Assembly (NCBI GenBank): GCA_964016885.1
Contig: OZ024742.1
Coordinates: 120,094,001 to 120,158,000, forward strand
Direction of reading: 5' to 3'
Source: Eledone cirrhosa
Taxonomy: Eukaryota
DNA: 64,000 nt
In this document: positions 17,065 to 46,576 of the stretch, piece after piece
Numbering within the stretch: position 1 is the stretch's first letter
Layout of the letters: the number at the start of each line of letters is the position of its first letter
Program-made: the position numbers and the translations under genes
Notes under the pieces: model-generated
Database searches by the model: none
What the model saw: only the letters and a program-made list of their open reading frames with translations
What the model was told of the DNA's origin: nothing

Positions 17065-18294
17065 TCATCATCATCATCGTTTAACGTTCCTGTTCCACGC
17101 TTGCGTGGGTTTGGACGGGGGTTTTCTCACTTGAGGCAAGAGTGGTTGTCTTGCTCGCATAGGACTGTCTGGCGGGTTTTCTACAGCTAGATGCCCTTCC
17201 TAACACCAACCACATTTACAGTGTAGGGCTGGGAGGTTTTTACCGTGTTGCCTACACGGCCACATTACAGCGTGGACTGTCTGGCGTGTTTTCTACAGCT
17301 GGATGCCCTTCCTAACACCAACAACATTTACAGTGTGGGACTGGGAGGATTTTACCGTGTTGCCTACACGGTCACATTACAGCGTGGACTGTGTTTTTTT
17401 GTCGTGACACCTACACAATCTCGTTTGTTTCGGCCTGGATGTTGTGGCACCAACATAACTTTGCATTGAAGGGGGCGGTGTGGATGGGGTGGTACGGGGG
17501 TGTATTTTGTTAGAGATGCCTACTGACTAGTAGGTTTTACTTTGTATTTAGGTAAGGTGTGTCTTCTCTGTTACTGAGTACCGCCAAAGGTCTCGGTCCA
17601 GTGACATTGTCTTGGAGAGGTGTAAGTGTGTGAGGTCGGAATTTATCAGCTCGTCCCAGGCTTTCCTGGGTCTGCCTACTCCGTGGCTACCATCTATCTT
17701 TATTGCCCTGCACTTTGTTATACAGCTGTCGTCTTTCATGCGCATCACGTGACCATACCAACCTAGCCTTCTCTCGAGTAAACAACATCTGATCCCTCTT
17801 ATTTCTAATTTTTTCCTTAGTTCGTTTATGCTTTGCCGTTCACGTATATTACTATTACACATCCAGCGGAGCATGCAGGCTTCCTTCCTCTCTAGTCTGC
17901 GTATAACCTCTGCACACAATGCCCAGGTCTCACTGCCATGCAACATTGCTGTTCGTATGCAGGCATCATACAACCTGCCTTTCATTTTTAGGGAGAACCC
18001 TTTAGCAGCTAATAGTGGTATAAGCTCTCTGAACTTTTTCCATCCAGTTCTGACTCTAGCTACTGTACTTTCGGAGCACCCTCCCCCACTGCTGATTTTG
18101 TCACCCAGGTAACGGAAGCTGTCCACTATTTCTATAGAACCCTCTGCGCAATTGAAAGAGCTAGTATTTTGTGGGCACTTGCTGCTACTTATTGCACCAG
18201 AACACCGGCCACATTTAAAATCTGTGTTCTTAGTTAGCTTACCTGTGATCCCACTACATCTTTTATGCACCCATACTTTGCATTTGGGACATAA
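17065..18294 (-). mobile_element. 5'-truncated RTE LINE copy
   Basis: Near-identical to the 3' part of ORF 20038-23283 from [10 protein letters not shown]; 3' UTR with a ~110-bp internal duplication; (GAT)n tail. Confidence 0.95.
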
Positions 18295-18717
18295 TATATA
18301 TATATATATATATATATATATATATATATACATATATATATATGCATATATATATATATGCATATATATATATGAATATATATATATATATAGATATGCA
18401 TATATATATATATCTTTATATATATATAGATATATATATAAACATAAATATATACAAAGATATATATATATAAACATATATATACAAAGATATATATATA
18501 TAAACATATATATATATACATAGATATATATATACATATATATATATATATCTTTATATATATATAGATATATATATAAACATAAATATATACAAAGATA
18601 TATATATATAAACATATATATATATACATAGATATATATATACATATATATATATATATCTTTATATATATATAGATATATATATAAACATAAATATATA
18701 CATATATATATATATAT

Positions 18718-19060
18718 CATCATTCATCATCATTTCATTTTACGTCCGCTTTTCCCTGCTTGCAAGGGTGGGACGGGAACTGATTCTGGCATGATTTCTA
18801 CAGCTGGATGCCCTTCCTAACACCAACCTCATTTACAGTGAGTGCTGGGTGCTTTTTTGCCGTGGCACCTCCACGACCACTTTGCAGTGGAATGATAGAG
18901 ACCCCAGTCCCTATCATCTCATTTCTACAGCTGAGTAAACTGGAGCAATGTGAAATAAAGTCTCTTGCTCAAGGAAACAACACATCACCCGGTCTGAGAA
19001 TTGAACTCACAACCTTTCGATTGCAAGGCCAATGCTCTAACCACTAAGCCATATGCCTCC
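18718..19060 (-). mobile_element. tRNA-head SINE with RTE-derived tail
   Basis: A box TGGCTTAGTGG, B box GAGTTCAATTC, CCTTGAGCAAG core; tail shares GGTGTTAGGAAGGGCATCCAGCTGTAG and (GAT)n with the RTE 3' UTR. Confidence 0.9.
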
Positions 19061-45266: not shown

Positions 45267-45436
45267 ATTGAAAGACTTCGCCAGGTGGTGCTATTAAGTT
45301 AGACATGGCCTGGGCCAATACTGGCCAAAACATTTCAAAGTTATTCAAAGTTATATATATATATACATATATATATATATATATACATATATATATATAT
45401 ATACATATATATATACATATATATATATATATACAC

Positions 45437-46576
45437 ATTTTATGTCCTAAATGCAAAGTATGGGTGCATAAAAGATGTAGTGGGATCACAGGTAAGCTAA
45501 CTAAGAACATAGATTTTTACATGTGGCCGGTGCTCTGGTGCAATAAGTAGCAGCAAGTGCCCACAAAATACTAGCTCTTTCAATTGCGCAGAGGGTTCTA
45601 TAGAAATAGTGGACAGTTTCCGTTACCTGGGTGATAAAATCAGCAGTGGGGGAGGGTGCTCTGAAAGTACAGTAGCTAGAGTCAGAACTGGTTGGAAAAA
45701 GTTCAGAGAGCTTATACCACTATTAGCTGCTAAAGGGTTCTCCCTAAAAATGAAAGGCAGGTTGTACGATGCCTGCATACGAACAGCAATGTTGCATGGC
45801 AGTGAGACCTGGGCATTGTGTGCAGAGGATATACGCAGACTAGAGAGGAATGAAGCTTGCATGCTCCGCTGGATGTGTAACAGTAATATACGTGAACGGC
45901 AAAGCATAAACGAACTAAGGAAAAAATTAGAAATAAGAGGGATCAGATGTTGTTTACTCGAGAGAAGGCTACGTTGGTATGGACACGTGATGCGCATGAA
46001 AGTCGATAGCTGTATAACAAAGTGCAGGGCAATAAAGATAGACGGTAGCCACGGAATAGGCAGACCTAGAAAAACCTGGGACGAGCTGATAAACTCCGAC
46101 CTCACACACTTACACCTCTCCAAGACAATGTCACTGGACCGAGACCTTTGGCGGTACTCAGTAACAGAGAAGACCCGCCTTACCTAAATACATAGTAAAA
46201 CCTACTACAGCCAGTAGGCATCTAACAAAATACCCCCCCCCCCCCCCGTCCCACCACCCCCAACCCATCCACGCCACCCCGTTCTATGTAAAGTTCTGTT
46301 GGTGCCACACCATCCAGGCCGAAACAAATGAGATCGTGTAGCTGTCACAACAAAAAAACACACAGTCCACGCTGTAATGTGGCCGTGTAGGCAACACGGT
46401 AAAAACCTCCCAGCCCTACACTGTAAATGTGGTTGGTGTTAGGAAGGGCATCCAACTGTAGAAAACCTGTCAGACAGTCCTATGCGAGCAAGACAATCAC
46501 TCTTGCCTCAAGTGGGACTACCCCCGTCCAAACCCATGCAAGCGTGGAACACGGACGCTAAACCTGATGATGATGA
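45437..46576 (+). mobile_element. 5'-truncated RTE LINE copy
   Basis: Starts CATTTTATGTCCTAAA; one frameshift near 45515; 3' UTR; (GAT)n tail. Confidence 0.95.

What the first reader, a model, noticed from the sequence alone, without database searches (positions are those of the whole stretch)
17065..46576. Three RTE copies are 5'-truncated at the same point
Seen: copies beginning at 18294 (-), 40048 (-) and 45437 (+) all start within about 6 nt of CATTTTATGTC (22533-22543 of the full element), in the middle of the PHD finger, directly against (TA)n. LINE truncation is normally variable. All three also share variants absent from the full copy (SSSK vs SNSE, SVTE vs SVIE). Inference: a non-autonomous ~1.1-1.2 kb subfamily, a strong RT stop or RNA processing site, or TA-guided joining.
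Basis: seen in the sequence. Interest (0 to 1): 0.7.

Follow-up and report, generated by a model that had tools for sequence, protein, structure and literature searches.

The report
Chance trio at mild truncation hotspot
Three shortened copies of a very common jumping gene start within six bases of each other, but they come from different branches of the family and under 1% of copies genome-wide start there, so this is likely a mild joining preference plus coincidence, not a new short element.

Summary
Three 1.1-kb copies of an RTE-type LINE start at element positions 22533-22538, inside the PHD finger, against (TA)n.

The subfamily reading fails. The three are not one clade (AU p = 1e-4). B and C are closest to long copies. 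The 'shared variants' occur in long copies too.

There is no strong genome-wide peak. About 86 of 12,977 copies (0.66%) join a TA array at this site. Three control sites give 0.18-0.28%, and another TA-like site gives about 0.58%. In samples drawn without regard to length, 0 of 89, 0 of 31 and 1 of 47 copies end here.

Flanks share no unique DNA, so local duplication is also rejected.

Best reading: independent insertions into (TA)n, with a 2-3-fold microhomology-favoured joining site and chance clustering. A rough estimate expects 0.002-0.46 such trios per genome, so the cluster is unusual. Neighbours elsewhere show no significant co-truncation (P = 0.44). Earlier scan notes cover this family's PHD finger; none returned covered this truncation point.

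The parts
19627..23637 (+). Full-length RTE-type LINE (about 4.0 kb): 5' UTR, single ORF, 3' UTR lacking a stretch of about 36 nt that other copies have, (GAT)n tail; inserted in (TA)n
   Evidence: a second copy with the same 5' end lies at window coordinate 143674
20017..23283 (+). Single 1088-aa stop-to-stop ORF: APE endonuclease (82-299), RT (612-812), PHD finger (828-871)
22531..22541 (+). Mild 5'-junction hotspot (TCCATTTTATG) offering T, CAT, AT and TAT overlaps with TA/CA arrays; also the 5' arm of a modest predicted hairpin (22533-22577)
17065..18294 (-). Copy A: 5'-truncated at 22537/8; older branch, with a 112-bp tandem duplication in the 3' UTR that long copy L046 also has
18294..18717 (.). 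(TA)n array at the 5' junction of copy A
38974..40049 (-). Copy B: 5'-truncated at 22538 (TAT overlap); young branch; 60-nt 3' UTR deletion seen in no other aligned copy
40047..40130 (.). (TA)n array at the 5' junction of copy B
45352..45433 (.). (TA)n array at the 5' junction of copy C
45436..46577 (+). Copy C: 5'-truncated at 22533; young branch, a different sub-branch from B; +1 T frameshift near 22615

Best explanation
The three short copies belong to three different branches of a very abundant RTE-type LINE and are likely independent insertions into (TA)n arrays whose unfinished DNA copies were likely joined to the array through 1-3 matching bases at a mildly favoured, TA-like spot, and their clustering in one window is likely chance. 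The inferred steps are these. The endonuclease nicks a TA array. Reverse transcription starts at the (GAT)n tail. It ends early at a nearly random position. The cDNA 3' end anneals to the upstream TA strand by microhomology, and CTCCATTTTATG offers four such registers within 10 bases, which raises the junction rate about 2-3-fold. Shown here: separate ancestry, unrelated flanks, scattered 5' ends family-wide, and the size of the enrichment. Inferred: the enzymatic steps, and that chance accounts for the cluster.
For: A+B+C as one clade is rejected (p-AU 9.5e-5), and so is B+C (2e-5). B is 99.1-99.2% identical to long copies, one nearly full-length; C is 99.5% identical to a copy starting at 20875 and 99.2% to a full-length copy. 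A differs from B and C by 4.6-4.7% and keeps its own allele at 22545 in the 5' tip. TA-junction rates: about 86/12,977 at the site; 24/13,467, 20/7,680 and 31/10,961 at controls; about 65/11,264 at the GGATATA site, which does not differ from the test site (p = 0.41). Ends at the site in length-blind samples: 0 of 89, 0 of 31 in the youngest branch, 1 of 47 in contiguous stretches. Near-ties among 79 other ends: 15 pairs vs 12.9 expected. Microhomology excess at 41 junctions, p = 0.01. 5'-truncated L1 copies carry more microhomology than full-length ones (PMC2912911, passages).
Against: My look-elsewhere estimate is 0.002-0.46 such trios per genome under assumed copy number, clustering and heterogeneity, mostly under 0.1, so the cluster is unlikely in any one genome. 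A second pair 57 kb beyond copy C shares a 5' end within 1 nt (22762/22763, 10% diverged). Two more same-site pairs lie within 100 kb on C2 and C4, against 0.36 expected from only 1 cross-site pair; there is no excess at 250 kb (2 vs 1.8). A simple microhomology score ranks the site only at the 58th-90th percentile, and a control with the same score of 7 has 0.28%, so overlap alone may not explain the whole enrichment. The microhomology excess is weak (2 nt or more: 11 of 41, p = 0.06). A's nearest sampled relative is another short copy (98.2%). The count of 86 is extrapolated from 64 distinct loci in 100 of 139 rows.
Confidence: 0.75

Rival explanations
1. A hairpin sets the stop. Once the RT has copied 22577 back to 22533, the new cDNA would fold on itself and leave a weak A/U-rich hybrid, releasing the cDNA; TA overlap then fixes the junction. 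This would explain the hotspot, not the local cluster.
For: A predicted stem pairs 22533-46 with 22560-77 in both the MFE and the centroid structure. The cDNA hairpin is -7.3 kcal/mol, in the top 2-3% of 50-nt windows of the element. The site's rate exceeds that of a control with the same overlap score.
Against: 79 other 5' ends are not enriched beside cDNA or RNA hairpins (P = 0.27 and 0.31; 8 of 79 at -6 kcal/mol or lower vs 9.4% expected). The 201-nt region folds no better than shuffles (z = +0.6). The young branch has a C-to-T change in the stem yet supplies 15 of 33 junction loci. The GGATATA site reaches a similar rate with no hairpin.
Confidence: 0.1
2. Local end-copying: a new insertion would borrow its 5' end from a nearby older copy, by cDNA strand invasion or later gene conversion, so neighbours come to share a truncation point while keeping their own bodies.
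For: The trio lies within 28 kb. The 22762/22763 inverted pair lies 1.4 kb apart. Two more same-site pairs lie within 100 kb. Both local cases include head-to-head copies.
Against: The three junctions differ. A's tip keeps its own allele, and B matches L048 with 0 differences over the first 300 alignment columns. No flank DNA is shared. Outside the trio, 1 of 81 neighbour pairs within 30 kb is tied vs 0.53 permuted (P = 0.44), and 2 of 124 within 64 kb vs 0.78 (P = 0.15).
Confidence: 0.08
3. A non-autonomous 1.1-kb subfamily, copied from a short master or a processed RNA, produced the three copies.
For: About 86 loci genome-wide share the site. 13 of 31 sampled short copies form a tight young clade. 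A's nearest sampled relative is short.
Against: Short copies scatter over branches up to about 10% apart and have varied junctions. The young clade lacked long members only because my 29-mer excluded its allele. A search with that allele finds 4,495 copies; 16 of 30 fetched loci run more than 1.5 kb upstream and 0 of 31 alignments end at the site. Monophyly of the trio is rejected.
Confidence: 0.03
4. Local DNA duplication of one truncated copy, followed by divergence or conversion.
For: True local duplications with identical junctions exist elsewhere, for example the fold-back in L171.
Against: No unique flank is shared; the only flank match is a short interspersed repeat. The copies are 2.1-4.7% apart while closer relatives lie on another contig. 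Their 3' UTR structures differ.
Confidence: 0.03

Closest known systems
5'-truncated LINE insertions with microhomology at the 5' junction (human L1; PMC2912911, passages seen, which cite Zingler et al. 2005; that paper was not held)
   Same: 5' ends are scattered along the element with a slight excess of 1-3 nt overlap with the target.
   Different: Here the upstream target is mostly a (TA)n array, so the overlap preference becomes fixed TA-like hotspots on the element map (about 2-3-fold at two tested sites).
RTE-clade LINEs such as Bov-B (PMC13295347, passages) and octopus RTE-2_OV (PMC9115989, passages)
   Same: Single APE+RT ORF, microsatellite-like 3' tail, numerous truncated copies, and TA at the insertion site (Tn-TA signature in Bov-B).
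   Different: This family has a PHD finger after the RT core and inserts largely in long (TA)n arrays. RTE-2_OV is described with a C2H2 finger. No sequence comparison with either was made here.
LINE-derived non-autonomous elements and SINEs with RTE parts (PMC5786205, search listing and abstract start only)
   Same: A short element consisting of the 3' part of an RTE.
   Different: Those have their own fixed 5' end and form a clade; these copies have neither.

Membership tests
RTE-clade LINE | Single ORF with APE endonuclease followed by RT (definition recalled) | tested here: met
   1088-aa ORF; Pfam Exo_endo_phos 82-299 and RVT_1 612-812
RTE-clade LINE | Short tandem-repeat 3' tail instead of poly(A) | tested here: met
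   (GAT)n on the full copy, A, B, C and the 8 other aligned copies whose 3' ends were reached
RTE-clade LINE | RT groups with RTE references in a tree | not tested
No reference RTs were fetched.
Non-autonomous LINE-derived subfamily | Short copies form a clade | tested here: not met
   AU test rejects A+B+C and B+C; 31 genome-wide short copies are scattered on the tree
Non-autonomous LINE-derived subfamily | One fixed 5' end | tested here: not met
   At least 7 junction types among 64 listed loci; A, B and C all differ
Non-autonomous LINE-derived subfamily | Diagnostic variants confined to short copies | tested here: not met
   Every in-element allele shared by A, B and C occurs in 7-26 of 26 length-blind copies
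Strong RT stop or RNA processing site | A large share of copies ends at the site; coverage steps up there | tested here: not met
   0.66%; 0/89, 0/31, 1/47; no step in summed contig depth at 22537 (a poor measure)
Strong RT stop or RNA processing site | RNA 5' ends at the site | not testable with these tools
   No RNA holder was listed
Microhomology-joined 5'-truncated insertion | Excess overlap between element and target at 5' junctions | tested here: met
   Mean 1.15 vs 0.72 nt, p = 0.01, 41 junctions; a weak effect, and one of the 41 is a test-site locus
Microhomology-joined 5'-truncated insertion | Target-site duplication | tested here: inconclusive
   Both flanks are TA repeats, so a TSD cannot be delimited

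The most novel reading that the evidence does not exclude
Neighbouring copies of this LINE acquire the same 5' end because a new cDNA, released at a terminator-like hairpin or at random, is finished on a nearby older copy. Truncation points would then spread locally across different subfamilies. The trio and the 22762/22763 inverted pair 57 kb away would be two cases.
Probability: 0.08. Interest if true: 0.6.

Novelty: already known. Interest (0 to 1): 0.14.

Why it matters
As it stands, little. It shows how a LINE that lands in (TA)n turns the known microhomology bias of 5' joining into small fixed peaks on its own map, which can mimic a short subfamily when one window is read alone. With more than 13,000 young copies and one uniform target sequence, the family would be a good natural data set for measuring how much overlap and template structure decide where reverse transcription ends. 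If local end-copying were real, it would add a new step to LINE integration.

Tried and rejected
A DNA similarity search of the genome scores only the best 40 of 3,527 candidates, all spanning the query, so it cannot give a pile-up. I used its loci only as the near-full comparison set.

Reads: no RNA holder was listed. Logan contigs and a RAD library showed no step and no TA loose end at the site among the rows shown. Most rows were hidden (2,722 and 29 loose ends), so this carries little weight.

My first 29-mer sample excluded the youngest branch. I noticed this and corrected it.

Hairpin as a general cause: no association. Chimeric 5' tips: none seen. Whole-window self-BLAST timed out.

The GGATATA control may include point mutants: 6 of 31 forward loci show only one TATATA, so its true rate may be nearer 0.46%. 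The pattern counts need exact matches and TATATA within 8 nt, so they miss mutated and non-TA junctions (one such end at the site: C1:11548760).

Literature: searches returned no paper on fixed truncation points in a TA-targeting RTE. Only listings were seen for most hits, subscription journals are not covered, and no supplements were read.

Full report
Observation. BLAST of the full element (about 19627-23637) against the window finds three close short copies: A (- strand, 17065-18294), B (- strand, 38974-40049) and C (+ strand, 45436-46577). They begin at element positions 22537/8, 22538 and 22533. Each has (TA)n directly upstream and a (GAT)n tail followed by TA repeats. The ORF is 1088 aa with APE, RT and a PHD finger at residues 828-871, so the cut falls inside the finger. 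The junction sequences of the three are different.

Shared variants. Every in-element position where A, B and C agree against the full copy is shared by long copies. 22646G is in 55 of 55 comparison copies. 22651A is in 26 of 26 length-blind copies. 23261C is in 7 of 26. The window's full copy simply belongs to another branch and has private changes.

Ancestry. A is 4.6-4.7% from B and C, and B is 2.1% from C. A carries a 112-bp 3' UTR duplication also seen in long copy L046, and B has a 60-nt deletion seen in no other aligned copy. On a 34-row tree the data reject A+B+C as a clade (p-AU 9.5e-5) and B+C as a clade (2e-5) (quick search, rows chosen by me from 70). Among about 195 alignments per query, some redundant, B's best matches are long copies (99.1-99.2%). 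C's best match is a copy starting at 20875 (99.5%); a short copy follows at 99.3% and a full-length copy 98 kb away at 99.2%. A's best match is another short copy (98.2%), then L046 (97.7%). The 1-kb flanks share no unique DNA. These are three separate insertions.

Genome-wide pile-up. The genome (3.0 Gb) could be searched only by pattern. I counted copies with TATATA within 8 nt upstream of an anchor, divided by all copies with that anchor. At the test site this gives about 86 of 12,977, or 0.66%; 64 distinct loci were in the 100 listed rows, and the 39 unlisted rows were extrapolated. Controls: 22580-88, 24 of 13,467 (0.18%); 22751-59, 20 of 7,680 (0.26%); 22759-67, 31 of 10,961 (0.28%). A site with a GGATATA overlap, 22922-30, gives about 65 of 11,264 (0.58%, perhaps 0.46% after point mutants). 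The test site is 2.8-fold above pooled controls (p = 6e-11) and no different from the GGATATA site (p = 0.41). Overlap widens the effective window by about 2 nt, which explains only about 1.2-fold (my arithmetic).

Length-blind samples. Of 91 alignments (89 distinct copies) from the start of contig C1 that cover the site, none ends at 22531-39; ends run from 19627 to 22491, and 11 reach the edge of the fetched DNA. A tree with 31 of 33 fetched short copies scatters them over branches up to about 10% apart, but shows a tight clade of 13. That clade carries an allele my 29-mer had excluded. Searching with that allele gives 4,495 copies; 16 of 30 loci extend more than 1.5 kb upstream and 0 of 31 alignments end at the site (six loci overlap). 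In contiguous stretches, leaving out the window's four copies and one locus from the list, 1 of 47 copies ends at the site. Summed contig depth shows no step there, though this is a poor measure.

Why a mild peak. By my reading, 52 of the 64 listed junctions sit where the element overlaps a TA/CA array: TAT 23, AT 15, CAT 9, T 5. At 41 TA-array junctions along the element (the trio excluded, one other test-site locus included) the mean overlap is 1.15 nt against 0.72 under a blunt-join null (p = 0.01); for 2 nt or more it is 11 of 41 (p = 0.06). This matches the known excess of microhomology at 5'-truncated L1 junctions (PMC2912911, passages). A simple overlap score ranks the site only at the 58th-90th percentile, so something may add to it. 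A modest hairpin begins exactly at 22533, in the top 2-3% of cDNA windows. But 79 other ends show no link to hairpins (P = 0.27), and near-ties among them are at chance level (15 vs 12.9).

Why three in one window. A rough look-elsewhere calculation with assumed copy number (20,000-26,000), clustering and heterogeneity expects 0.002-0.46 such trios per genome. The finding was picked because it looked striking, out of some 250,000 windows in the scan. I tested a local mechanism. A second inverted pair 57 kb beyond C shares a 5' end within 1 nt despite 10% divergence. Two further same-site pairs lie within 100 kb, against 0.36 expected, with no excess at 250 kb. In 864 kb of contiguous DNA, leaving out the trio, 1 of 81 pairs within 30 kb is tied vs 0.53 permuted (P = 0.44), and 2 of 124 within 64 kb vs 0.78 (P = 0.15). 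The 5' tips are not chimeric. A rare local process is not excluded, but it is not supported.

Comparison with what is known. The anatomy fits RTE-clade LINEs; clade membership was not tested by a tree. Bov-B shows many truncated copies and a Tn-TA insertion signature (PMC13295347, passages). An octopus RTE is described in PMC9115989 (passages); it was not compared by sequence. Seven of eight earlier scan notes returned concern this family's PHD finger; none or 53 concerns this truncation point.

Verdict. The subfamily, strong-stop and duplication readings are refuted. What remains is a 2-3-fold joining preference of a known kind and a probably fortuitous cluster. Interest 0.14.

Noticed in passing
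window 22498-22629 (+): PHD finger (Pfam PF00628, E 5e-6) directly after the RT core of the RTE ORF; already the subject of several earlier scan notes.
   Followed up: no
G000:C3:120197359-120200407 (window coordinates 103359-106407, loci L104-L105): Head-to-head pair of copies 1.4 kb apart, 10% diverged, both starting at element position 22762/22763, neither in a long TA array.
   Followed up: partly
L171:1100-2390 (G000:C1:163.126 Mb): True fold-back inverted duplication: a truncated copy's junction and about 165 nt of flank are mirrored around a tiny loop, and the second arm breaks off after about 85 nt of element.
   Followed up: partly
L172 (G000:C20:7583000-7588500): Two tandem copies 1.67 kb apart with the same 5' junction but only about 92% identity; many degenerate repeats of the 3' UTR region nearby.
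   Followed up: partly
window 35031-38346: Inverted repeat of about 910 nt at 97.9% identity around an ORF-bearing core (36373-37570); looks like a Penelope-like element (label from recall).
   Followed up: no
window 27925-28515 (+): GIY-YIG endonuclease fragment (Pfam PF01541), probably from a Penelope-like element.
   Followed up: no
window 41018-45350 (+): Two-ORF LINE with a poly-Gln ORF1 and an APE+RT ORF2 interrupted near 43440-43530, lying between copies B and C; CR1-like by recall.
   Followed up: no
window 18717-19060, 19350-19610, 23810-24150, 46630-46890: Short interspersed repeats with repeat tails that share a 130-190 nt part of the RTE 3' UTR (72-84% identity) and also sit in TA arrays; likely SINEs riding on RTE enzymes.
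   Followed up: no
window 46944-47330 (-) and 50566-51368 (+): Older RTE relatives (68-73% identity); the first is also truncated directly against (TA)n, at element position 22879.
   Followed up: no
window 29703-34942 and 24985-26747: Very long (TA/CA)n arrays of 5.2 kb and 1.8 kb.
   Followed up: no
loci L199-L220 (G000:C1:7.7-9.5 Mb): Young copies here are almost all on the + strand and many join a short satellite unit instead of (TA)n, as an earlier scan note describes.
   Followed up: no
window 56706-57068 (+): ORF stretch that reads like a host exon with an N-terminal membrane anchor, possibly of a glycosyltransferase (recall; no call).
   Followed up: no
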